From: an uncultured Nitrososphaeraceae archaeon
GTDB lineage: Archaea; Thermoproteota; Nitrososphaeria; Nitrososphaerales; Nitrososphaeraceae
Assembly (NCBI GenBank): GCA_963765895.1
Contig: CAVXZB010000036.1
Span: forward strand, 1 to 64,000
Direction: 5' to 3'
Length of the DNA stretch: 64,000 nt
Both the position numbers and the translations under genes were made by a program. Shown here in pieces: positions 13,846-25,524 of this stretch (position 1 is the stretch's first letter; every line of letters starts with the position of its first letter). Below the pieces are notes generated by a model. That model saw only the letters and a program-made list of their open reading frames with translations. It was not told the origin of the DNA and searched no databases.

Positions 13846-14263
13846 ACTCCTTACGATGATGCAATATTAATCATTCCAAGTGAATTAAACTTCAGAGAAC
13901 AAGGAAATCTAATACTTATTATTTTATTAAATATAGATTTATCTAGATATAACTTAAGAGCAAATAAATAACAACTCATAGCGTAGTTATAGTAAGACAT
14001 GTTCGTATTCCATTCTTCTAAGATAAATTTAGATCCATCTACTCCTATCATGAAATCCCATTTTTAGGTCAATTCATCTGAATTTTGCCCTTAATATCAT
14101 CGTGGAAGTTTAAAGTGTACATACAGCACGTAATTATAGTATAATAACAATCGTTATTACTGGTTCTGTTCAATTATATCCAATTTTCTCATAAAAATAT
14201 GTAATCATATACAAAGTATATAGCTTGAGCGAAGTTGGAATATTGTAATAATTATATGCTTGG

Positions 14264-14614
14264 TTGCGATTATATATAACGAGTGGAATGAGAAAGGCAA
14301 ATGCTAAGGATGCATGGTATGACGTAGCAGAAGGAGAGTCTCCAGAGAGCTTGATTATCCCATATGAAGACATTCATCAGAAGCAAAGAAGAATTAGTGG
14401 AGAAAGCTTTCCACATTGCTTATTGGAATTATGCGATCATTGTAGATGGTCTTGCTCCTGTTTTAATGTAAAAGGCAAAATCGAAAATTGTCCTCTTTGC
14501 GGTCATCAGCTATCCGAAGTGCCTATGACTATAGAAGAGGTCTCTCAAATTGACTATCGAGTTGGCAGGCCAGGTATGACAATTATATTCGGTAGGCGTC
14601 CACCTCTCAGATGA
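14264..14614 (+). CDS. small Zn-ribbon protein (paralog of 13510-13845)
   Basis: LELCDHCRWSCS...CPLCG..LSEVPM..EE; same Cys layout as its divergent neighbour. Confidence 0.7.
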   Translation: MRLYITSGMRKANAKDAWYDVAEGESPESLIIPYEDIHQKQRRISGESFPHCLLELCDHCRWSCSCFNVKGKIENCPLCGHQLSEVPMTIEEVSQIDYRVGRPGMTIIFGRRPPLR

Positions 14615-16401
14615 TCATGGAGAAGTTTGCTTATCTACAGTATGAGTTAAGAATTGAGAATTAGGCGATAATTTGAACTAATCTTCGCATTAGAAGACAT
14701 ATCTAAAGGAAGTATTTACTTTTCAAAGAATAACCTTTTCACTCTTATTTAATAAGATTTGATTATCGCACAATCTCCCACGCGACATCGATCTTGAAGT
14801 TATATATCATGCTCCGTATACCATATTTAGATTAATTATACTAATAATAACGAAGTTTTATAAATATGACGAATTCTAAGTAACCTGGATTTAAATACTG
14901 ATGAATACCTTAGATATATTAAGTAACATAACCGGTATATCACCTTCGTGTCAATTGGCCAGCACGAAAACTGTAGTCTCATCAAGCAGATGGTGGATAT
15001 CCCTCATGCCAATGTGTTTGTCATAAAAATACCTTTTTGAACGCAATGGATTGATTAAATATTACACTAGAAAATATATAACCTGAAATAGTAAATATGA
15101 AATCACGTTATTTCTCAACGTGTCACCTCCCAAGATTCGGGCAATTGTTGAAACTGCTCCCACCTAAAACTATAGTAATTTTTTTTCTATACCTATGAGG
15201 TGTTGCCCAAATCCCGAGCATGTTTTATCAGCTCAAGCTTGACTTATCAAGACTTCTATTTGCAATAAGATAATTACTTCAATTGTTAACCTGTCTGTTA
15301 CCTATTGCGATTAACTTGAAGAATAGAAAAATTTTGGAGATAGTTCTGATACAGTTGTTTTGATGTCCTAGCATAATGTGATTCAAATATCGATAGTATG
15401 CCAACTCCAAACATTAAATCGCTGCCATATCTTTCCAATTTTACCATTTGCTGCAATTCTAAAGAGATCAAATCCAATGATGTTTATAGGTTCTCATTAG
15501 AATGTGTGTCCAATATTTTCGAGTAGACATACACACACCCACTATAACTTCAATGTCAGTATGGATACCGGATTTCCAGTTAGCGTCACAGTATAACATT
15601 TACAAGATATAAGATATGTTAGTCATAAATTATTACCACAAGCATATATGTGTAGTCGCTGGGAAGACTCGCCATAATACATGAATTTAATCTTTATAGT
15701 GCAAACTAGGTACATTCTATGGATTGAATTCATGGATTACTACCCAGTAGCCACACGATGTAACAGTATCTCTAAAATAGGATAGAAGTATCATTGAAGA
15801 TCCAATAATTCTTGTCTGGATATCTTTTTATTTTATTTTATTGCTTGTCAATTGTTCAGTTCAACATTGCATGAATGCTATAGTTTTTTCGGCAAGCAGA
15901 AAAACTTAAAATTGGTATCCCAATGTATATTATATGGCAAGTCATCGATGCCAGTACATCCAGTTATACCTAGTTTATGACGAAAAAATAGCCTTAGTTT
16001 TATACTATGTTGGCGAGAAAATTTCAGAGTTAAAATATGTAAATACTTCAGAATAATAAAATAAAATGTGACGCTGTAAAAGTCCCTAATGTAGTACAAT
16101 GATGCCTCGTTTGTAAGAAATTAATGCGCGTAGACTGCGAATATGTGATTCATTCCATAAGTCCTCCTTGAACGTTAAAGCATCTCGTCAATATTTTTTG
16201 CCAGTAGATCGACCATTTGAAGTTTGAATATAATTGACGGTAATTAGTTGGGATCGAGTAGCAGACCGAAGTATATAGCATATAATCATGTTTCCTGCTT
16301 GAGTCATAAGCCGTAAAGGAATCTCTAATTCTAAATATATTCTCGATGTCGACGATTGTGAAATTGTTTTCTATGATAATGACCATATATCAACGAGTAA
16401 A

Positions 16402-16587
16402 TTGACTAATACTGAGGACAAATCACAATTAGACAACAGGATGAAAAAAGCCGAACGTGTTGTTAAGTATAATGAGAAGGATAATGTACCAATTCAGACT
16501 GAAGAAGGAGAAGCCGAAACCCATGAAAATGCTGAGGTGGAGCATCTAGCAGATGAAAAGGAAATCAAACGCAAAAGAGAAGACTGA
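16402..16587 (+). CDS. small acidic hydrophilic protein
   Basis: 61-aa E/K-rich ORF. Confidence 0.5.
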   Translation: MTNTEDKSQLDNRMKKAERVVKYNEKDNVPIQTEEGEAETHENAEVEHLADEKEIKRKRED

Positions 16588-16813
16588 CATGCAACAATCA
16601 GTTAAGGGTTATAATGAGGTATAAGAAATCTTTGAGTTCCGAATTATGATGAGCGAGCGCAGTAAAACGTAATCACTGCACAAGACTACTTCGTTACAAA
16701 CCCAGATTATTATTTCGGTAGTTCAAATGTGCATCATTAACTATGAATTTCACCAGCAAATTGACATAGTTTGTAAAAAATGTTCGTTCAGTACATGTTC
16801 TGAGGTTTTTATT

Positions 16814-17317
16814 CTATAATATATATATATATATATATCTCTCTTTATTTTTTCTTCTCAATTCTGTTCGATCAGTATAATATTGTGATGCATGAGTTAT
16901 CTTAAATCCTGTTGAATCTATTCCTGCAAAGATATGCTTGGTACCACTAATTACAATGAATGACGAAATTATCTTTTCAAGCAATGAATTATTGATTCTA
17001 TCTGTAAACTTTTGCAATGTTGTAAAATGAGGAATACGTGACAACCGTAGAAATGACCTTAGGTAATAGGCTTCAATTAACCACTCGACAAACATTCTAT
17101 AACTCTTACCTTCATACTGTCGTATAGCAACTAGAACTATGTGCTGCCATATTGTAAATATGTGATTACTTTTCCTGTTAGAAAATAGAGGAATCCTTGC
17201 ATGCTTCAAAACACGGAACATAGTACCTGCAAGTCTGACGTACATTGATTCTTTCAATAGACTATTGGTATTATACTCTTACAAAGCTTTGACTGTATGA
17301 GATGGTTTCTACACAGC
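16814..17317 (-). mobile_element. IS5-like transposase, 3'-truncated
   Basis: KSYRMFVEWL, RIPHFTTLQKF and GIDSTGF (first catalytic Asp); breaks off in a (TA)n tract at 16817-16838; candidate end GCTGTGTAGAAACC at 17304-17317. Confidence 0.85.
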
Positions 17318-17362
17318 AGGTGTATAGAATCCATAAATATGATGACGTGATTTAAGCAGTTC

Positions 17363-17450
17363 ATGTCAACAGCAGAGGCCTTCAAATGTGATGAATGTGG
17401 TACATCGTGTAATTCGCAAGAAATTAGAGGATCACAATAAATATCAGTAG
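17363..17450 (+). pseudogene. tiny C2H2 zinc-finger remnant
   Basis: MSTAEAFKCDECGTSCNSQE then a frameshift to LEDHNK. Confidence 0.45.
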
Positions 17451-17710
17451 TGATTTCTAATACTTTACCTCATTTGATACACTAGTCCAATATGAGATGA
17501 GAAAAATATACTATCAATAATTTTAATTGTATATAGTTCCAATCAAATAATGCAACCGTGTTTCTTATGGAAGAACTCATGACATTAATTGTATTATGAT
17601 TGTATTATTAATATATACTAGCAGACACTTATTTAATGTGAACTACTTCGAATAACAGTCTCAAATAATAAAAGATCTGAAGTTATTTTTAATAATATAC
17701 ATGTATTATG

Positions 17711-18214
17711 TCATACCCTGTCCAAGTGAGCATGTAACATCCCTGCCATCTTTTCATGTTTTTCCATAACACCAATCAAAAAGTCGTTTGTGCCTATATC
17801 ATGATACTCTTCGCACCTATTAGCATCTGTACGTAAACTTCTAATTATCTGTTCATGGTCTGCAAACAGATTTGAAATCATTGTCAATTCATCGGGATAT
17901 TTTCCTGGACTTTCTTGAATTGAACCATGTTCTACGAATTCGGCAAGAGTACCAAGTGATCTGCCATTAAGAGTATGTACACGTTCAGCAACTTCATCTA
18001 TAATCTCATCTATTTGTTCATACTGTTCTTGGAAAAATTTATGTCTTTCACAGAAATTAGGCCTAACAACGTTCCAGTGATAATTTCTTGTTTTTGTAAA
18101 TGAAATATATTCATCATAATCTCTTATTCAAAATTTGTATTACACCATACGAAAGTCCTTGGACAAATCAATATTAATATCTTTATTACTCTCCATTGCT
18201 AGTTGGCTGGTCAT
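17711..18214 (-). pseudogene. dps: Dps (DNA protection during starvation, mini-ferritin), N-terminus disrupted; absent from ORF track
   Basis: KTRNYHWNVV.PNF..RHKFFQEQYEQIDEIIDEVAERV...D.GT.DFL...MEKHEKMA.ML; stops near 18120-18150. Confidence 0.9.
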
Positions 18215-18544
18215 ATTTTATATTAAGAATATGCGGCATAATATAAAAATGTGACAGGGACTTAGGGATCATGCACTTAGTCGCCATCTCATTAAAGAAC
18301 TGTATATGTGATATAGTTTCGCCTAACAATCATCTTTTCGTTAAACCTTGTTAAATCTACTACATTTCCTAAACTGGCAACTAACCCAAAAAAACGACTA
18401 GACATGGATCCTCGTTTAGAGATTGAATACATAGACTGAATAAAAGATTTATACTTGACAGAATCAGATAATACTATATTTAATTGATTACTGTTGACTA
18501 ATAATTTACAATAGTTATATAGAATACAATTTACCTTAGGATGA

Positions 18545-18829
18545 ATGAACAAAAATCTAGCAAGTATAGCTGTGGGTGTGGCCTTCAGTATATCATTGTT
18601 GTCAATGAGTCTGATCGCAGCACCAGCGATAGTATCCAAAGTATATGCCCAAAATTCAAGTGGAAGTACACCGACTAAAGTAAATAATACTGGTGGAGAA
18701 AGAGCTTCTCCAAAGGAATTGACGACATCAGGAATGCTCACTACTAAGAATGCCTCATCTTCTCCTGGCAAATTTATGGGTGGTGCTCCGTTAAACCAGA
18801 GTGGGTCTAACTCAAGCTCTACGAAGTAG
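18545..18829 (+). CDS. small secreted S/T/G-rich protein
   Basis: Signal peptide ending VYA|Q; low-complexity mature part. Confidence 0.7.
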   Translation: MNKNLASIAVGVAFSISLLSMSLIAAPAIVSKVYAQNSSGSTPTKVNNTGGERASPKELTTSGMLTTKNASSSPGKFMGGAPLNQSGSNSSSTK

Positions 18830-19036
18830 TGATAAGAAATAGGGCAAGCAACTATTTTTATTCATATTATCAAATATTACTGATCTACAGCCCATCTAGG
18901 CCTTGTATAAATAATGGGATATCTTTGGACCCTTAGATAAAAGTACTAATGGAAAGTTTGTCATAGGCTTTTAATACCAGAGATGAAAAATATGATCCAA
19001 TCTTTTACTTCTGTATGGATGAATAACAGATAACTA

Positions 19037-19146
19037 GTCCTGCAGGTAAGAGGCTTTTTTCGGCCAGTTCCGTATTTGGCCTTTCCTCTTTACCAAATAG
19101 TGCAGCGGGGAACGGAACAGAAACCCGCTACACCATTTTGCAGGAC
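19037..19146 (-). ncRNA. candidate structured ncRNA (three-way junction with kissing loop)
   Basis: GC-rich island; three abutting helices; loops GTTCCGT and ACGGAAC are complementary; mismatches become G-U on the minus strand; TTTAAATA box 19 nt upstream on minus. Confidence 0.6.
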
Positions 19147-19449
19147 ACATATAGGTGGATCTCTTTATTTAAAAGAGTATATCCCAAGCAAAATATATTA
19201 TTATAAGAAGATTAGATGTTCCGTCTTATAATATTCCAACTTTAACAAGACATCTACCCAAATCTAAAACCTAAAGACGCATTTGTGACATTAGCAAGAT
19301 TCTATAGAATAACAAATAAACATAACTAATGAAATCTAAATTGTTCAGCGCCATGGATTAACAGATTAAACGTAGTAAAGTGACCAAGCTTTAAGTAGTT
19401 TTTTCTCCAATATTATTACATAATATGTTGTCGACGATTATTCGTTACA

Positions 19450-20401
19450 ATGAAAAATGAAGTTACAAGTATAACATGTCCAGTCTGTGATAGCAACCGT
19501 GTACATGAGTATGGTCATTATAGGGTATCAACAGTTATAACGGATGTTGAATCGGGTGAATTAATTTGCTCCCAATGTGGTATGGTAATTAATGATCGCC
19601 TCGAAGATAGGTACAAGGCCAGATTCACGCACATTTGGCAATGAGCAAGACTATAATAAGGTCAGACTAGGTCCTCCAACTTCTATTGCATACCATGATA
19701 TGGGTTTATCCACTACGATTGGAAGAACAGATAAAGATGCCAGTGGCCACAAATTGGATAGTGCCACATATTCGAAGATGCAAAGATTAAGAACATGGAA
19801 TCTTAGAACACAACTTCACAAATCAACGGATAGGAATTTCATGATTGCATTTCACAAACTATTCCGATTAAAAGATAAGTTAGGTTTAACAGATGCGGTA
19901 GTCGAAAAAGCTGCTTACACATATAGAAAGGCTCAACAAAGAGGAATAGTAAGAGGAAGGACAATAGATACTATTCTAGGTGCCGCAGTCTATGCGGCTT
20001 GCAGAGAACTAGGAATCACAAAGACCCTAAGTGAGGTTGCGCAAGCTAGCTCTGTTAGGGAGAAGAGGATATCTAAGGCATATAGAATTCTCAGCATTGA
20101 ACTTGGAATATCTATCCCAATTTTAGATCCTATGAAGTGCATTGTAAAGGTGGCAAATAAAATAAGTCTAAATGAACGGACAAAGAGAAGAGCCATGGTT
20201 ATAATGAATCAAGTTACTGAAAAAGAGATATCCGCAGGAAAAGACCCAATGGGTATGGCAGCAACTGTCATTTATTTGTCTTGTCTAGGAAGTGGTGAAA
20301 ATAAGACTCAAATAGACATTGCAAAAGCAGCTGGCGTAACAGAGGTAACAGTCAGAAATAGATTTAAGGATCTTAAAAACAAGCTGGAATTACTCAGTTA
20401 A
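19450..20401 (+). CDS. tfb: transcription initiation factor IIB paralog, split by a frameshift near 19610
   Basis: Zn ribbon CPVC...GELICSQCG, HDMGLSTTIG, two cyclin repeats, GVTEVTVRNRFKDL. Confidence 0.92.
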
Positions 20402-21106
20402 TATTATATTAATCGACTTGATTAACTACCATTGATCGTTTTTATAATTGTTGTCTAATATATTCTATAATCGTATAGCAGAAGTAGTATAAAGTAGGCT
20501 CATACTGTTAAGCGATCAAATAATGAGGCACTGTTTTTCTAAGGATATCAATTACTTGATATATTCAGGCATATTCCAACTTCACTCTATAGCATAATAG
20601 GATATAAATCCAGATTGTTAATAGCACGTTAATGTCATTACTGCAATTAAGTAGTTATCATTATTATATAAGAGCAATATACCTAAAGAGGAAGATAATT
20701 TACATCCATAAATGGACATTAGCTAGTATTATTTGTCTAGAATACTGGTTTTTCGTTCCTGATCCACATTTTCTGCAAGGCCTTTCAGCTATTTGAAAAA
20801 AGTCAAAAAAGATATTTTTAATTTAGATCTTCCGACAAGGGTTTTCTGTCATCTTATTTTAGGCTGCAGAGCACTATTCGTATAGTTTAGAGTTATGTCA
20901 TGATATAAAAGATACAAGCATTCAAATGTAATCAAAAGAAAACATTAAAAATTCTAATTGTCGAGTCTACATGTTGTGCTCTTGGGTTGATCTATGTGAA
21001 ATAATCACGAAACCAACAATTATATCAGCTTCAAAACTAGCAAAACTCCTTTCATATAGAGATTATTGTTTAAAACTATTAAATTTTATAGTATCCTATT
21101 GTTTAC

Positions 21107-21517
21107 TTGTTGGCTTTACAAGACCTATTTGATAATAAAGTGATTGCAATGCATATTAAATTCATTGATGTAATGAAAGTACTTTTTGGAATATTCATAC
21201 TGATTATAATAATTATAACAACCACGTCCCCATTGTTACATCACAGTCAATTCGTAGACGCGGTAGGACAACCACAAGGCAACACAACAGATAGGATATA
21301 TCACAGTAATGCTACAGGGGCTACTATAATCTTTCATGGTCATAGTATTTCATCAAAAACTAGCAATATGACTGGCACGAATAATACGGGAATAACTGGA
21401 TTTGGTACAGAAAATTCTATGAGAAATATGACAAATCCAATGTTTCTAATGAAAAAGAATCCCTTAACTAATTTAAGCAATCCGCTGGCTAATATGACAA
21501 ACCCATTACGCAGATGA
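21107..21517 (+). CDS. secreted N/T-rich hypothetical protein
   Basis: Hydrophobic signal or anchor segment; repeated NMTNP/NP motifs; true start probably a downstream Met. Confidence 0.6.
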   Translation: MLALQDLFDNKVIAMHIKFIDVMKVLFGIFILIIIIITTTSPLLHHSQFVDAVGQPQGNTTDRIYHSNATGATIIFHGHSISSKTSNMTGTNNTGITGFGTENSMRNMTNPMFLMKKNPLTNLSNPLANMTNPLRR

Positions 21518-21948
21518 TTGGATCGACAAAACTAACGATATTCATAATTTGCTGTCGGCTATTCATATACCATGTCACTAACTGCTACAATCTAAAGCGT
21601 GTACGTTTAGATGTGCAAATTATATACAATAACTAGATTATAAATTTAGATAATACATTAATCAATTCTTCGTAGCCAAAGTAAATCGCAGGTAAATTTT
21701 GTAATATTATATTTATGGATTGGGTATAAATCTTGCCAAATAGCGTTACGAACTAGCATTTTTTAAACCTGACTGTTACATCTGCCTAAATATTCTGAGC
21801 CAAGACCAGGATAAGCGTTCAGTATCTTCGCAATTGGGTTGGCTGCTAACCCTCAATGAAATAATGAAGACGTTAAGACTGAAGGATATCCGTTTGAAGG
21901 CATAAGGATACGTTTATATTTTTAACTAGCTCGAATATAATCTCTGGA

Positions 21949-21964
21949 GTGACACCGGTGTCAC
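21949..21964. promoter_or_regulatory. perfect 16-bp palindrome (putative operator)
   Basis: GTGACACCGGTGTCAC lies between a TTTATA box (~21913) and the ATG at 21983. Confidence 0.5.
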
Positions 21965-21982
21965 ACTGGTGCGCTATTAGTT

Positions 21983-22461
21983 ATGATTAGAACAAAATGG
22001 ATCTGCCCCACTTGCAAGGAATTATCTCCTACGAGGCATTGGAGTGTAGAACGACATATCAAGAGAAAACATGCTGGGATAGGCGAACCATTAGTATAAA
22101 TACATATCAAACTCGAATTCAGATGAATATACAGTCAGGATGGTCTAATATTCATGCTTCTACCAATATGATGGATTTTACTCACGAGACAAATAAATCA
22201 CAAAGAGACGGCAGTAGCTACGGCTATCACAATAATTATACTAAAAGCGATAATAATACTAATACTAGTGCATATCAAAAAATATATCCAGAAAAAAATA
22301 CTATTCTTTCTGCTACTGCAAGTAATTATGACAATGAAAAGACAAGAAGAGGATTTCTATCTCAACATACTAAGAATAGAAGTGTAATAGATGATGAAAC
22401 TCTCCAACTGCTCCATCAGATAGCTGAGATAAAAAATTTTCAGAACAAAATCAATTACTAA
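21983..22461 (+). CDS. C2H2 zinc-finger protein, frameshifted near 22090
   Basis: Frame from 21983 reads MIRTKWICPTCKELSPTRHWSVERHIKRKHAGIGEP, then appears to continue in the 21997 ORF frame. Confidence 0.65.
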
Positions 22462-22559
22462 GACATAATCTATATTCTGGTATAGAAGATATAAGGCAGT
22501 TTAATGGTATACAATTACCAAATGAATTAGTTGCCCCTTATATTATATATAAAAATATT

Positions 22560-23120
22560 GTGGATAATAATAGAAATATTGGATATAGAGGTCGTCTTTG
22601 TTATAAGTGTTTATCATATTGGATTGACTTTGTGCATAATAATGAAGAAGGTGGAATGAAGTTACTAATGCGAGAAAAATTTTCTGGTCACGAATGTGAC
22701 CCCAAAAAAGTACTGGAAATCAGCAAGTGCAACAGTCTTGACCTTGGAAGTAAAAATAGCCAAGCGCGCAGGAAATTAAGTGATTTACTTACATTAATGG
22801 CATCTTCCGTTATTACCATATTTGGCCAAAAGCCACTTTATCTCCATATTGAAGAATTAATCGAACAAGATAATCGGCAACTATCTTCATGGATCAAAAA
22901 AGAAGATTGTATTGACCTAGGTAATATAAAGGAAATAAAGGAAAGCCATTGGGCCAATCGCGCAATTAAACAAGAAAAAGTAAGAGACAAAAAAAGTATA
23001 ATAGTAAACAGTAGCGAATTAATTGATTTCTTTAGAACTGCACTAGCAACTTTTGGTACATTCAGAGTGCAAATGGGAGAAGATAATTTACCACACTACT
23101 TTTTCATATACTTTATTTGA
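22560..23120 (+). CDS. hypothetical protein with CxxC...HxC motif
   Basis: GYRGRLCYKCL...HEC; intact 186-aa ORF. Confidence 0.7.
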   Translation: MDNNRNIGYRGRLCYKCLSYWIDFVHNNEEGGMKLLMREKFSGHECDPKKVLEISKCNSLDLGSKNSQARRKLSDLLTLMASSVITIFGQKPLYLHIEELIEQDNRQLSSWIKKEDCIDLGNIKEIKESHWANRAIKQEKVRDKKSIIVNSSELIDFFRTALATFGTFRVQMGEDNLPHYFFIYFI

Positions 23121-23224
23121 ACTAAAGAATTCTCTTTCAGAATAACTGGCTATCTATTTACCCAATATAATATTTGTATTATTAGTACTTTGATTTGTAT
23201 ATACAAAAGAAGTGATGGGTCATC

Positions 23225-24187
<963 letters not shown>

Positions 24188-24248
24188 GCGAATCTAATTG
24201 TTACAAATAGGATGACTGCATCAATATTTATATTTCATATTGAGGATA

Positions 24249-24984
24249 GGCCCTGTTAACTTAGCGATAAAGCTATAGCTGTAAACAATATCTCATATTC
24301 AATGAGTTTATTTGAACGTGAGAGAACATCCGTAGAGACAATATCGCTTGCGTTATTATACTTATATCTTCTAGGCCTAAGTAAGTTTCAGAAACACATC
24401 TAAGGCAATCCAACTACTTGGAAAAGCGAGAGGAGGAAGGAGTCATGTTGCTATATGGAAATAGGTTCAGAGATTCCAATCCCAGACGTCTATAGTGTTG
24501 TAAAAGAGTAGCAGCTTTTCTAATAGATGGAACCATGATGCAGATCAGTTCTGACTAGGCTTGGTTATGAGTTGCTGTTGTAGAACCAGTGCACAGACAA
24601 ATTCTTGGAGTTTATGTACATCTCAAGACATAGGAATATGATTGTATCTGAAGCATCCTTGCGAACGTTGATCAAGATTTATGGCAAACCATACTGTATA
24701 TTCAGATGGTGGAATATGGTATCCGGAATCATGTATATCATTGAGACTAGAGCATAGATTACATTCGCCATATGAGAAGAGTATAGTTGAAAGAACTGTA
24801 GAATATCTAAAGGGTAGAACCCAAGCATTTGATGATTATTATCCGTGTATGAGAGCTGGATTATGCAACCTTAGACATGTACACAAATGGCTCATTCTGT
24901 TCATATTATACACAATAGCGTTATGGAATTAGTACTAAATTTGACGATCTAAGGAGGTGGAAGTATCTCTAAGTTAACAGATCC
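24249..24984 (+). mobile_element. IS6-family insertion sequence (736 bp), transposase pseudogenised
   Basis: TIRs GGCCCTGTTAACTTAGCGATA and TATCTCTAAGTTAACAGATCC (18/21); flanks TGAGGATA/TTAGGATA (7/8 TSD); YSDGGIWYP and KSIVERTVEYLK motifs. Confidence 0.88.
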
Positions 24985-25524
24985 TTAGGATAGGATGATA
25001 AACTATGCTCATAAAGAGAAATTATGTTCATAATATTTATGGCACTCGAAACTAATTTTGCTATTTATCTATTGCATTGCAGAAATTGAAGTAATAAAGG
25101 GTCGTTTAGATGACCCAGATGCATTTATACGGACAGAAATAAGAATAAATTTAATTCATCAGATTAGCTGGCATTACATGATACTAAAGCGACGAAAAAT
25201 AATACAGGATACTATGAAAATGTTAAGGGCTAAGTGCTAACCTAGTATCATGTTTTATTCTGGGTAACAAGATATTATTGACCAACACTGTTGACTTTAC
25301 ACCTGAAAGCTTTAGTTATCTTCAAAATGCTACTTTGTTACTTTTAGTACAATGACTATAATGTTTGATTATTGAATAATAAGGACTATGGCTTGTCGAT
25401 GTACTGAGAATATCAGCGATTTTATTGTGGCATCCAAATAGCCGTACTTGTTTATGACTTACCAGATACTAATCGATGTACAAGATATATAAGAAAAGTA
25501 AGCCAAATGATGTCGATGTAAGTT

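What the first reader, a model, noticed from the sequence alone, without database searches (positions are those of the whole stretch)
19037..19146. Unannotated 110-nt structured RNA candidate: three-way junction with a 7-bp kissing loop
Seen (+ coordinates): P1 is GTCCTGCA 19037-44 with TGCAGGAC 19139-46. P2 is GGTAAGAGG 19045-53 with CCTCTTTACC 19085-94 (one bulge), extended past an internal loop by GGCCA 19062-66 with TGGCC 19077-81. P3 is 19095-19109 with 19124-19138 (15 bp). The helices abut with no linkers. The two terminal loops hold GTTCCGT (19067-73) and ACGGAAC (19112-18), which are exact complements. Both P3 mismatches are A-C on + and become G-U on minus, and the internal loop is A-rich on minus (AAA/GAAAAAAG). 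A TTTAAATA box sits 19 nt upstream on minus. No ORF covers it and it diverges from tfb. It lacks tRNA, 5S and hammerhead (CUGAnGA) signatures. Inference: a stand-alone small RNA with tertiary structure that I do not recognise.
Basis: partly seen in the sequence, partly recalled or inferred. Interest (0 to 1): 0.8.

Follow-up and report, generated by a model that had tools for sequence, protein, structure and literature searches.

The report
New kissing-loop small RNA, soil archaea
A roughly 110-base non-coding RNA gene, folded into a Y shape whose two arms are tied together by seven base pairs between their end loops, is conserved across one family of soil ammonia-oxidising archaea and matches no described RNA family.

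Summary
It is one member of a conserved RNA family. A covariance model finds it in 108 of 151 genomes of the window's own family, where named records read Nitrososphaera, Nitrosocosmicus or Nitrososphaeraceae. It finds it in 0 of 127 genomes of 19 sister families, in 0 of 150 further genomes of the phylum and in 0 viral contigs. Compensatory changes support every helix. The 7-bp loop-loop helix stays paired in 97.8% of cells across 84 distinct sequences, with six fully complementary variants. G-U counts (277 against 83) show that the minus strand is the RNA. TATA-like boxes peak 21-35 nt before P1, which marks an own promoter. No Rfam family, tRNA, conserved ORF or MITE signature fits. The next gene downstream lies on the same strand in 60 loci and on the opposite strand in 60, so this is a free-standing gene and not a leader. 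Genomes give 1-8 matches. Neighbours are often Rieske-flavin reductases, SOD, catalase, Dps, UvrC or PolX (35 of 123 loci), so I infer a link to redox or oxidative stress. The mechanism is open. My best guess is a shape-driven, protein-binding regulatory RNA. The transcript ends are not shown.

The parts
19166..19173 (-). TATA-like box (TTTAAATA on minus), centred about 26-27 nt upstream of 19143 and 19 nt from the first base of P1
   Evidence: Sequence. Across 84 copies, TATA-like hexamers pile up at -35..-21 from P1 on the RNA-sense strand: 98 matches in three 5-nt bins, against 1-9 in each other bin. 48 of 84 copies have one at -40..-24, against 16 of 84 on the opposite side.
19161..19177 (.). 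Inverted repeat CTCTTT/AAAGAG around the TATA box, a possible operator (by eye)
   Evidence: Sequence. Similar TTCTTT..AAAGAA repeats stand at the same place in copies from two genera. No function was tested.
19037..19146 (-). The RNA gene: a 110-nt three-way junction closed by a loop-loop helix. The 5' end is about 19143-19146. The 3' end is not defined.
19139..19146 (-). P1, 5' strand (pairs with 19037-19044)
   Evidence: 7 pairs, all 7 with changes on both sides, 87.7% of cells paired in 84 sequences.
19095..19138 (-).
   Evidence: 13 pairs, all with changes on both sides, 89-92% paired. Most members carry a 2-nt bulge in the arm.
19112..19118 (-). Kissing strand a (GUUCCGU in the RNA)
   Evidence: Pairs with 19067-19073. 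7 pairs, 97.8% of cells paired, 4 pairs with changes on both sides in 9, 20, 21 and 4 sequences. Six fully complementary variants occur. These pairs were not in the model that made the alignment.
19045..19094 (-).
   Evidence: Lower helix: 10 pairs, 9 covarying, 96.0% paired. Upper helix: 5 pairs, 97.8% paired.
19067..19073 (-). Kissing strand b (ACGGAAC in the RNA)
   Evidence: As for kissing strand a.
19037..19044 (-). P1, 3' strand
   Evidence: Cross-genus conservation stops at its last base. No T-run follows at a fixed place.

Best explanation
This is a free-standing gene for a small structured non-coding RNA of about 110-115 nt, read from the minus strand from its own TATA-box promoter. 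It starts at or within about 3 nt of the first base of P1. Three points are shown. It folds into a three-way junction of a 7-bp closing helix and two arms of about 15 bp. The terminal loops of the arms pair through 7 Watson-Crick pairs. It belongs to a family confined, among the genomes searched, to one archaeal family (Nitrososphaeraceae by record titles), with 1-8 model matches per genome and no match in about a quarter of good genomes. The remainder is inferred. The RNA acts through its locked shape and not through a free seed sequence. It most likely binds a protein, as a scaffold or decoy, or a small ligand at the conserved A-rich junction. It takes part in the redox, oxidative-stress or DNA-damage response, because its copies lie unusually often beside such genes. 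My odds: a real structured RNA family on this strand 0.95, a free-standing trans-acting gene 0.75, loops paired within one molecule about 0.6, a redox-stress role about 0.4, a protein-binding mechanism about 0.35.
For: Fold: (z -7.64). Homologs: blastn; model R1: 108 of 151 genomes of the family, 77 of 103 good-quality ones, 16 of 18 genera; without the two unpublished genomes G062 and G100, 106 of 149. Restriction: 0 of 127 genomes in 19 other families of the order; 0 of 150 further genomes of the phylum; 0 viral contigs. Structure: 21 sequences, 94.4% of cells paired against 86.5% shuffled, 0 of 500 shuffles reach it; slid partners 33-47%; 84 distinct sequences, 93.4% against 81.2%, 36 of 42 pairs with changes on both sides; 38 distinct sequences not used before, 94.3% against 85.6%, 27 of 42 pairs. 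Loop-loop helix: 100%, 97.8% and 95.8% paired in these three sets, with 4 of 7 pairs covarying in each. 78 of 85 copies have 7 of 7 pairs and six Watson-Crick variants occur. The two copies in the window's own genome carry different, self-matching loop words. Strand: 277 G-U against 83 A-C cells. Promoter. Not a leader: the nearest downstream ORF is on the same strand in 34 and the opposite strand in 48 of 85, and in 26 against 12 in the second set, 60 to 60 in all. Not coding: 42 of 85 copies have no ORF across the element and the rest use all three frames. Context: 28 of 83 loci have a Rieske, Fe/Mn-SOD, Mn-catalase, AhpC, thioredoxin, ferritin/Dps, UvrC, PolX, Ku, DinB or glyoxalase gene among the nearest ORFs. 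So do 7 of 40 loci fetched after the list was written down. Rieske genes, mostly fused to FMN or NAD reductase domains, stand in 12 of 123 loci in five genera, in three different arrangements. A random point in the own genome lies within 1.4 kb of one of eight of these eleven kinds (SOD, AhpC, thioredoxin, Dps, UvrC, PolX, Ku, DinB; Rieske not included, and the catalase and glyoxalase queries found no copy there) about 1% of the time. The window itself has a Dps-like gene about 820 nt away.
Against: No transcript with defined ends or strand is shown. The runs laid are contigs of RNA libraries, which may hold DNA. One abundant contig (X7, 590 letters, depth 499) ends at about 19143, where a minus-strand start is expected. 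However, it runs on at least 255 letters past 18905, into the convergent gene. By my recall of Illumina adapters, the adapter letters at its end would mark the 3' end of a plus-strand RNA if the library is dUTP-stranded. No terminator-like T-run follows P1, so the 3' end and the size are inferred from conservation only. About a quarter of copies lie just upstream of a co-oriented gene (29 of 85 within 350 nt), for example 4-22 nt before Rieske genes in L017, L047 and L248, so some copies are probably leaders too. The stress-gene list was drawn up after seeing the first loci. Many loci share ancestry, for example 5 SOD loci in one genus and 7 UvrC loci in two genera. The background came from one large genome and left out the Rieske genes, which make up 12 of the 35 loci counted; with them my own estimate of the background is 2-4%, so the enrichment is real but overstated. 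The short junction strands (about 2, 1-2 and 0-1 nt) do not by rule of thumb (recalled: Lescoute and Westhof families) predict side-by-side arms. The loops could therefore pair between molecules. No protein partner or ligand is identified.
Confidence: 0.75

Rival explanations
1. The two loops pair between molecules and not within one.
For: Covariation cannot tell pairing within a molecule from pairing between molecules. The junction strands are very short, which by recalled rules does not favour parallel arms. Paralogs in one genome carry different self-matching loop words (the window copy has GTTCCGT/ACGGAAC and the second copy GCTCCGT/ACGGAGC), which would keep assemblies apart.
Against: The two arms are about equal in length in most members, as expected if the loops meet within one molecule. 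Seven-bp or six-bp kissing between parallel arms is known (lysine riboswitch, recalled). There is no phage context (0 viral contigs).
Confidence: 0.2
2. It is a cis-acting leader (a riboswitch or protein-binding 5' UTR element) that controls the gene downstream.
For: The three-way junction with kissing loops is the architecture of purine riboswitch aptamers (recalled). Some copies sit 4-22 nt before Rieske genes (L017, L047; L248) or 83-122 nt before PolX (L015, L021). No terminator follows. The 3' strand of P1 often reads GCAGGAG, which resembles a ribosome-binding site.
Against: The nearest downstream ORF is on the same strand in 60 loci and on the opposite strand in 60. Only 29 of 85 copies have a co-oriented ORF within 350 nt. 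Downstream genes are of many kinds. No expression platform is conserved, and conservation stops at P1.
Confidence: 0.1
3. It is a base-pairing regulatory sRNA, comparable to OxyS or RyhB. One loop kisses target mRNAs and the internal loop-loop pairing is a closed or storage state.
For: The neighbourhoods (Fe/Mn-SOD, ferritin/Dps, Fe-S Rieske proteins) resemble the target lists of bacterial iron- and oxidative-stress sRNAs (recalled). Several paralogs per genome is typical of sRNA families.
Against: The loop words change between species and between paralogs while staying complementary to each other. Targets would therefore have to change in step. No free conserved seed remains if the loops are paired. 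I did not test for targets.
Confidence: 0.1
4. The functional strand is plus. The structure would be the 3'-end or stabiliser structure of the convergent gene's mRNA (the small secreted protein, 18545-18829).
For: The plus strand also folds well (z -4.71). The X7 contig joins the convergent gene region to the element and ends at about 19143. Under a dUTP-stranded library, the adapter type I recall marks a plus-strand 3' end.
Against: G-U pairs on the minus sense number 277, against 83 A-C. The positioned TATA box lies on the minus-sense side in copies with every kind of neighbour. A convergent gene is present in only about half of the loci.
Confidence: 0.03
5. It is a mobile DNA repeat (MITE) or a small protein gene (the 38-aa ORF 19034-19150).
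For: P1 looks like terminal inverted repeats. Genomes give up to 8 matches. An ORF covers the element in the window. DDE transposase genes stand near 3 of 83 loci (L060, L085, L109).
Against: The own genome gives only 2 matches. The flanks are unrelated beyond promoter and RNA. Changes are compensatory in helices, which is the signature of selection on RNA. 42 of 85 copies have no ORF across the element, and the others use three different frames with varying ends. Length differences are not multiples of three.
Confidence: 0.02

Closest known systems
Purine riboswitch aptamer (Rfam RF00167), and the L2-L3 kissing of the lysine riboswitch
   Same: A closing helix and two hairpin arms radiate from a three-way (lysine: five-way) junction, and the arms are held together by loop-loop pairing. 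In the lysine riboswitch about 6 Watson-Crick pairs join parallel arms (recalled).
   Different: There is no sequence or model match. The arms are about twice as long. It has 7 plain Watson-Crick pairs and not two pairs plus base quadruples. The junction strands are only 0-4 nt, not a ligand pocket of about 7-8 nt each. It is not placed in leaders (60 to 60 orientation). It is archaeal and has its own promoter.
Alu domain of SRP RNA
   Same: A three-way junction whose two hairpin loops pair with each other to close the fold, and which works as a protein-binding platform (recalled).
   Different: It is a separate gene of about 110 nt, not the end of a roughly 300-nt SRP RNA. It gave no match to the SRP models of Rfam. 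There is no UGUNR-type turn in the junction (by eye; the motif is recalled). The arms are far longer, and the kissing helix has 7 bp against 2-5 bp.
Packaging RNA (pRNA) of phi29-like phages
   Same: About 120 nt, a three-way junction, and two loops complementary to each other (recalled).
   Different: In pRNA the loops pair between molecules to build a ring on the phage portal. Here the mode is unknown, the context is chromosomal, and no viral contig holds the motif.
Hammerhead ribozyme (natural forms with loop-loop contacts)
   Same: A three-way junction with tertiary contact between two arms.
   Different: It has no conserved catalytic core. The junction strands are too short and read AA.., not CUGANGA / GAAA (the motif is recalled). 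There is no Rfam match.
Bacterial stress sRNAs (OxyS, RyhB/PrrF) and Y RNA-Ro60
   Same: A small stand-alone RNA gene, often in several paralogs, linked by neighbourhood to oxidative-stress, iron or DNA-damage genes.
   Different: No homology. No free seed sequence. No Ro60 (TROVE) gene in 5 of 5 genomes searched. Induction by stress has not been tested.

Membership tests
Any family of Rfam 15 (4227 models) | Score at or above the family's gathering threshold | tested here: not met
   The whole window gave 0 matches. At E<=10 nothing lies on the element's minus strand. In 10 homologous loci at E<=5 the only match lies elsewhere.
tRNA / tmRNA | A cloverleaf recognised by ARAGORN | tested here: not met
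   0 genes in the window.
Hammerhead ribozyme | Conserved catalytic core in the junction strands | tested here: not met
   The junction strands are 0-4 nt and A-rich. There is no Rfam match. The core motif is recalled.
Purine riboswitch | Three-way junction with kissing loops | tested here: met
   This is a likeness of architecture only.
Purine riboswitch | Match to the family model, conserved junction pocket | tested here: not met
Riboswitch / cis-regulatory leader (generic) | Consistently upstream of a co-oriented gene | tested here: not met
   60 same strand against 60 opposite strand. 29 of 85 copies have a co-oriented ORF within 350 nt.
Riboswitch / cis-regulatory leader (generic) | Binds a small ligand | not testable with these tools
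   Needs in-line probing or ITC.
phi29-type pRNA | Phage DNA-packaging context | tested here: not met
   0 matches in viral contigs. The neighbours are chromosomal.
phi29-type pRNA | Loops pair between molecules | not testable with these tools
   Covariation cannot separate pairing within a molecule from pairing between molecules.
MITE / mobile repeat | Many copies with shared ends and target-site duplications | tested here: not met
   One blastn copy and two model matches in the own genome. The flanks are unrelated.
Y RNA-Ro60 particle | A TROVE-domain protein in the genome | tested here: not met
   0 of 5 genomes, while the control genomes gave hits.
Archaeal C/D or H/ACA guide RNA | C/D boxes or ACA box, K-turn | tested here: not met
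   Only weak snoRNA-model matches (E 2.7-8) on the other strand, beside the element. By eye the internal loop has no G-A/A-G K-turn and no ACA follows.
Small protein gene | Conserved reading frame | tested here: not met

The most novel reading that the evidence does not exclude
The RNA is a self-assembling module. This would be the first cellular (archaeal) counterpart of the phage pRNA principle. In soil ammonia oxidisers it would serve as a scaffold that gathers redox or repair proteins under oxidative stress.
Probability: 0.12. Interest if true: 0.9.

Novelty: categorically new. Interest (0 to 1): 0.78.

Why it matters
Very few structured non-coding RNA families are known in archaea beyond the universal ones, and I found none described for the soil ammonia oxidisers. 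Four full-text searches gave nothing on this RNA. The one paper I opened names only SRP RNA and RNase P RNA as non-coding RNAs of Nitrososphaera viennensis (PMC13475601, passages only). This family has a long-range tertiary contact proven by covariation and its own promoter. It is found in only one family among the genomes searched. It keeps company with superoxide dismutase, catalase, Dps, Rieske-flavin reductases and DNA-repair genes. These organisms drive nitrification in soils and are known (recalled, not checked here) to be unusually sensitive to hydrogen peroxide. An RNA tied to that response would open a testable route into their stress regulation. The compact, rigid fold is also a good target for structure determination. 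The architecture itself has precedents; what is new is the family and whatever it does.

Tried and rejected
(1) Y RNA/Ro60: no TROVE gene in 5 of 5 genomes.
(2) The palindrome TAGAACnnnGTTCTA upstream of the copies of one genus, tried as a regulon motif: exact matches only at the RNA locus in three of the five genomes searched (one other place in a fourth), and matches with one mismatch no more frequent than the reversed-pattern control. It is a local site at most.
(3) A C/D-box sRNA next to the element (18974-19049, +): E 2.7-8, boxes imperfect, conserved only in the 95%-identical relative.
(4) A terminator: a first TTTT lies within 40 nt in 32 of 84 copies downstream and in 31 of 83 control stretches.
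(5) The 159-aa ORF 18292-18771 (-) as a downstream gene: its length is not kept in relatives (75-159 aa). The opposite strand holds a conserved 92-94-aa secreted protein, so the 159-aa ORF is spurious.
(6) RNA evidence: 19 RNA runs hold small shares of the words. I laid 4. They hold matching contigs but show neither strand nor ends. X1 (683 letters, depth 14) spans promoter and flanks and may be DNA.
(7) K-turn, loop-E and H/ACA pocket readings of the internal loop: not fitting by eye.
(8) Orientation bias toward convergent genes in the first set (48 against 34) vanished in the second set (12 against 26).
(10) The first literature search was too loose and useless. One search found only reviews.
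(11) No 3D modelling of RNA was available, so pairing within or between molecules stays open.
Full report
**1. What is in the sequence.**
Every coordinate in the finding is correct. On the plus strand, GTCCTGCA 19037-44 pairs with TGCAGGAC 19139-46. GGTAAGAGG 19045-53 pairs with CCTCTTTACC 19085-94 with one bulge, and GGCCA 19062-66 with TGGCC 19077-81. The stretch 19095-19109 pairs with 19124-19138 over 15 positions. The two loops hold GTTCCGT (19067-73) and ACGGAAC (19112-18). ViennaRNA gives this same three-way junction as the minimum-energy fold. The minus strand folds at -52.3 kcal/mol against -27.7 +/- 3.2 for 200 dinucleotide shuffles, z -7.64, and none of the shuffles is as good. The plus strand folds at -44.7 kcal/mol, z -4.71. 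A 38-aa ORF (19034-19150, minus) and a 51-aa ORF (19076-19231, plus) overlap it. They are dealt with in section 5.

**2. It matches no known family.**
Rfam 15 gives no match at gathering thresholds anywhere in the window. At E<=10 over 18800-19450 there are nine weak matches, none on the element's minus strand. Five of them are C/D-box snoRNA models at 18974-19049 on the plus strand, E 2.7-8. Ten homologous loci (36,578 bases) scanned at E<=5 gave one match, at an unrelated place. ARAGORN finds no tRNA or tmRNA in the window.

Four full-text searches found nothing on this RNA: Nitrososphaera + ncRNA, Thaumarchaeota + kissing loop, Nitrososphaera + riboswitch, and Nitrososphaera viennensis + sRNA. 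Two looser searches were useless. The one paper I opened (PMC13475601, passages only) names only SRP RNA and RNase P RNA as non-coding RNAs of N. viennensis. Its supplements were not looked at.

**3. It is a conserved family.**
Blastn of the element against 61 related genomes found clear homologs at 76-95% identity, all in the window's own family. In the own genome blastn finds one copy. I aligned 21 homologs (A1) and built covariance model R1 with the nested helices only.
- R1 matches 108 of 151 genomes sampled from the family (E<=0.001). These include 77 of 103 genomes of good quality and 16 of 18 genera, with 1 to 8 matches per genome. The tally includes two unpublished genomes, G062 and G100, both with matches. 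Without them it is 106 of 149. No sequence of theirs was used further.
- The own genome has a second, diverged match at C19:178591-178708 (60 bits).
- In a sample of the order, R1 matches 18 of 23 genomes of this family and 0 of 127 genomes of 19 other families.
- In a sample of the phylum it matches 0 of 150 genomes besides the own one.
- A degenerate pattern of the two loop regions was scanned over one genome of each of 185,579 species. 79 of the 80 listed records carry titles of Nitrososphaera, Nitrososphaeraceae, Nitrosocosmicus, Nitrososphaerales, Thaumarchaeota or Thermoproteota. One 2,979-base contig is labelled Burkholderiales and is probably misbinned.
- The same pattern has 0 matches in 2.9 million viral contigs.

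About a quarter of good genomes of the family lack a match. The RNA is therefore widespread but not universal.

**4. The structure is under selection, the loop-loop helix included.**
I tested three sets. A1 holds 21 sequences aligned by MAFFT. A2 holds 85 matches (84 distinct) from 83 loci, aligned to R1. For A2 I left out duplicate loci of the same places, the chance-hit loci L001-L004 and L026-L034, and L048 of the unpublished G100. A5 holds 40 further matches (38 distinct) fetched later.

| Set | Cells forming standard pairs | After shuffling partners | Shuffles reaching the observed value | 3' partners slid 1-3 columns | Pairs (of 42) changed on both sides |
|---|---|---|---|---|---|
| A1 | 94.4% | 86.5% | 0 of 500 | 33-47% | 23 |
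| A2 | 93.4% | 81.2% | 0 of 500 | 33-48% | 36 |
| A5 | 94.3% | 85.6% | 0 of 500 | 35-46% | 27 |

The seven loop-loop pairs were not part of the model, so the alignments are not fitted to them. They are paired in 100%, 97.8% and 95.8% of cells in the three sets, and 4 of 7 covary in each set. In A2 there are six fully Watson-Crick variants:
- GTTCCGT/ACGGAAC
- GTCCCGT/ACGGGAC
- GCTCCGT/ACGGAGC
- ATTCCGT/ACGGAAT
- GCTTCGT/ACGAAGC
- ACTCCGT/ACGGAGT

Several of them recur in more than one genus, and 78 of 85 copies have 7 of 7 pairs. The copies with 4-5 pairs are low-scoring and look decayed. The two copies in the window's own genome carry different, self-matching words.

Two caveats apply. The sequences are related, so the shuffle counts are not probabilities. 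A2 and A5 are fitted to the nested helices.

**5. Strand, promoter, ends and coding.**
- *Strand.* Read on the window's minus strand, the helices hold 277 G-U cells against 83 A-C cells, which would be G-U on the other strand. 20 of those 83 sit in one doubtful pair next to the junction. The minus strand is the RNA.
- *Promoter.* On that strand, TATA-like hexamers start at -35 to -21 from the first base of P1. There are 98 matches in three 5-nt bins against 1-9 in every other bin. 48 of 84 copies have one at -40 to -24, against 16 of 84 on the opposite side. In the window the box is TTTAAATA at 19166-19173, inside an inverted repeat CTCTTT/AAAGAG. Its centre lies 26-27 nt from 19143. By the usual archaeal spacing (recalled), the start falls within the first bases of P1.
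- *3' end.* Conservation between genera stops at the last base of P1. No T-run is placed behind it: a first TTTT lies within 40 nt in 32 of 84 copies and in 31 of 83 control stretches. The 3' end is therefore not known.
- *Coding.* 42 of 85 copies have no start-to-stop ORF across the element. The other 43 use all three frames (23, 12 and 8) with varying ends. Element lengths of 111, 112, 113 and 114 nt are all common. It is not a protein gene.

**6. RNA libraries.**
Nineteen soil, rhizosphere and plant metatranscriptome runs from 18 studies hold small shares of the words of 18900-19300. I laid four of them, all kept as contigs.
- X7 has a 590-letter contig of depth 499. It lies on 18905-19141 and, after two more letters, runs straight into what I recognise from memory as Illumina adapter. 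Many molecules therefore end at about 19143, where a minus-strand start is expected.
- That contig also continues at least 255 letters beyond 18905, into the region of the convergent gene.
- If the library is dUTP-stranded, the adapter type I recall would mark a plus-strand 3' end. I cannot check the library type.
- X5 has a 182-letter contig on 18972-19153.
- X11 has short contigs that match only 19038-19094 and then differ, so they are relatives or paralogs.
- X1 (683 letters, depth 14) spans everything and may be DNA.

As the tool states, contigs cannot give strand, ends or level. Expression as a discrete minus-strand RNA is therefore likely from the promoter evidence, but it is not shown.

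**7. It is a free-standing gene, not a leader.**
The nearest downstream ORF of 60 aa or more is on the same strand in 34 of 85 copies, on the opposite strand in 48, and absent in 3. In the second set it is 26 same, 12 opposite and 2 without one. That makes 60 to 60 in all. Only 29 of 85 copies have a co-oriented ORF within 350 nt. The nearest upstream ORF is on the same strand in 39 and divergent in 40.

Paralogs within a genome share only about 45 nt of promoter, the RNA, and about 25 nt behind it. The duplicated unit is thus a compact gene, like a tRNA or sRNA gene. Some copies are nevertheless placed as leaders. They lie 4-22 nt before Rieske genes (L017, L047, L248) or 83-122 nt before PolX (L015, L021).

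In the window, the RNA diverges from a TFB gene (19450-20401, split into two overlapping ORFs). It converges on a conserved 94-aa secreted, Ser/Thr-rich protein (18545-18829). The 159-aa ORF on the minus strand there is spurious.

**8. Neighbours.**
I scanned the ORFs of 90 aa or more among the two nearest on each side, within 1.3 kb, against Pfam: 40 + 137 + 86 proteins.

In the first 83 loci, 28 have a neighbour from this list:
- Rieske: L017, L043, L047, L069, L078, L093, L096, L097, L102, mostly fused to FMN_red or NAD_binding_1 domains
- Fe/Mn superoxide dismutase: L018, L024, L061, L062
- Mn catalase: L101
- AhpC: L050
- thioredoxin: L075
- ferritin/Dps: L011, L074
- UvrC: L019, L038, L051, L066, L106
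- PolX: L015, L021
- Ku: L012
- DinB family: L016
- glyoxalase: L025

I then wrote this list into the notebook and fetched 40 further loci. Seven of them have a listed neighbour: Rieske in L248, L254 and L284; glyoxalase in L257; Mn catalase in L279; SOD in L263; UvrC in L266. An Fpg/Nei glycosylase (L278) is not on the list and was not counted.

In all, 35 of 123 loci have a listed neighbour. Rieske genes stand in 12 of 123 loci, in five genera and three arrangements: downstream on the same strand, upstream on the same strand, and convergent. TFB genes are neighbours in three genera.

For scale:
- The five genomes checked have 6-15 Rieske genes each, and an RNA copy lies within 1.3 kb of one in 3 of the 5.
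- In the own genome a random point lies within 1.4 kb of any SOD, AhpC, thioredoxin, Dps, UvrC, PolX, Ku or DinB gene 0.97% of the time.
- The window itself has a Dps-like gene at 18214-17714 with two in-frame stops, about 820 nt from the RNA. It was not counted above.

Four caveats apply. The list was made after seeing the first set. Many loci are the same ancestral arrangement, for example 5 SOD loci in one genus. The background comes from one large genome and leaves out the Rieske genes, which are 12 of the 35 loci counted. The ORFs are raw ORFs and not gene calls. Adding the Rieske genes and allowing for the smaller genomes of most members, I estimate (from, not simulated) a background of 2-4% for the full list, against 7 of 40 (17.5%) in the second set. 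I take the association as real but smaller than the raw numbers suggest.

**9. How it probably works.**
Three things are shown: a promoter-bearing gene, a rigid three-way junction, and a 7-bp loop-loop helix under selection. The rest is inferred. The remaining conserved single-stranded bases are the A-rich junction and, in most members, an A-rich internal loop. The RNA most likely works by its shape. It would be a platform or decoy for a protein, or less likely an aptamer for a small ligand at the junction. It would belong to the redox, oxidative-stress or DNA-damage response.

Whether the loops pair within one molecule or between molecules cannot be told from sequence. Roughly equal arm lengths favour pairing within a molecule. 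A Y RNA-like role with Ro60 is excluded for lack of a TROVE gene (0 of 5 genomes). A palindrome upstream of the copies of one genus is local and not a regulon motif.

**10. Comparison and verdict.**
The architecture has precedents: purine and lysine riboswitch aptamers, the SRP Alu domain, phi29 pRNA, and natural hammerheads. Every membership test that could be run failed, so this is a resemblance of design and not of descent. I rate it a real, previously undescribed family of structured archaeal RNA. It is new as a family, and its function is unknown. Its tertiary contact is proven by covariation, and it has a testable link to oxidative-stress biology in soil nitrifiers.

Noticed in passing
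window 16847-17317: A 471-bp repeat, holding most of the 147-aa ORF 16814-17257 (-), occurs in more than 50 copies of 97-99.8% identity spread over the own genome's contigs, plus many copies near 80%. It is a recently active small mobile element or MITE-like repeat. It is unrelated to the RNA.
   Followed up: partly
window 17714-18214 (-): A Dps/ferritin-like gene with two in-frame stops near its start. It is 95% identical over 549 nt to an intact-looking copy on contig C6 (84341-84886). It is a probable pseudogene duplicate, about 820 nt from the RNA.
   Followed up: partly
window 19450-20401 (+): The TFB gene is split into a 64-aa zinc-ribbon ORF (19450-19644) and an overlapping 269-aa cyclin-repeat ORF (19592-20401). 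Relatives have one ORF of 296-331 aa. This is a frameshift, a pseudogene or an assembly error.
   Followed up: no
window 18545-18829 (+): A conserved 92-94-aa protein with a signal-peptide-like start and a Ser/Thr/Asn-rich tail, 68-79% identical in three relatives and without a Pfam match. It is convergent with the RNA. An abundant metatranscriptome contig (X7, depth 499) may extend into this gene region; the 255+ letters it runs on past 18905 are too unlike the window to be placed.
   Followed up: partly
window 18974-19049 (+): Weak matches (E 2.7-8) to five C/D-box snoRNA models, with imperfect boxes, overlapping the first 13 nt of the element. They are conserved only in the 95%-identical relative.
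   Followed up: partly
G000:C19:178591-178708 (-) = L072:2592-2709: A second, diverged copy of the RNA in the same genome (60 bits). Its loop pair is GCTCCGT/ACGGAGC, against GTTCCGT/ACGGAAC in the window copy.
   Followed up: partly
L017, L038, L047, L051, L066 (about 45-60 nt upstream of P1): A perfect or near-perfect palindrome TAGAACnnnGTTCTA lies just upstream of the promoter in copies of one genus. It sits between the RNA and a divergent 100-112-aa ORF without a Pfam match. It is not enriched elsewhere in those genomes. It may be a local operator.
   Followed up: partly
L087 (2567-2683 and 5654-5770); L086 (2591-2707 and 10474-10592): Two copies of the RNA lie on the same strand 3 kb and 8 kb apart in two genomes. 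RTX-repeat (HemolysinCabind) genes lie between or beside them.
   Followed up: no
L201: A 2,979-base contig labelled as a Burkholderiales bacterium MAG holds the RNA motif. It is most likely a misbinned archaeal contig.
   Followed up: no
L025, L052, L055, L056 (directly before P1): In one subgroup a hairpin (CCTTTC..GGAAAG type) stands immediately 5' of P1, where other copies have the spacer after the TATA box. It may be a different promoter arrangement or an extra 5' stem.
   Followed up: no
window 14000-25000: Only 9 ORFs of 90 aa or more lie in 11 kb. Coding density by long ORFs is low around the element.
   Followed up: no
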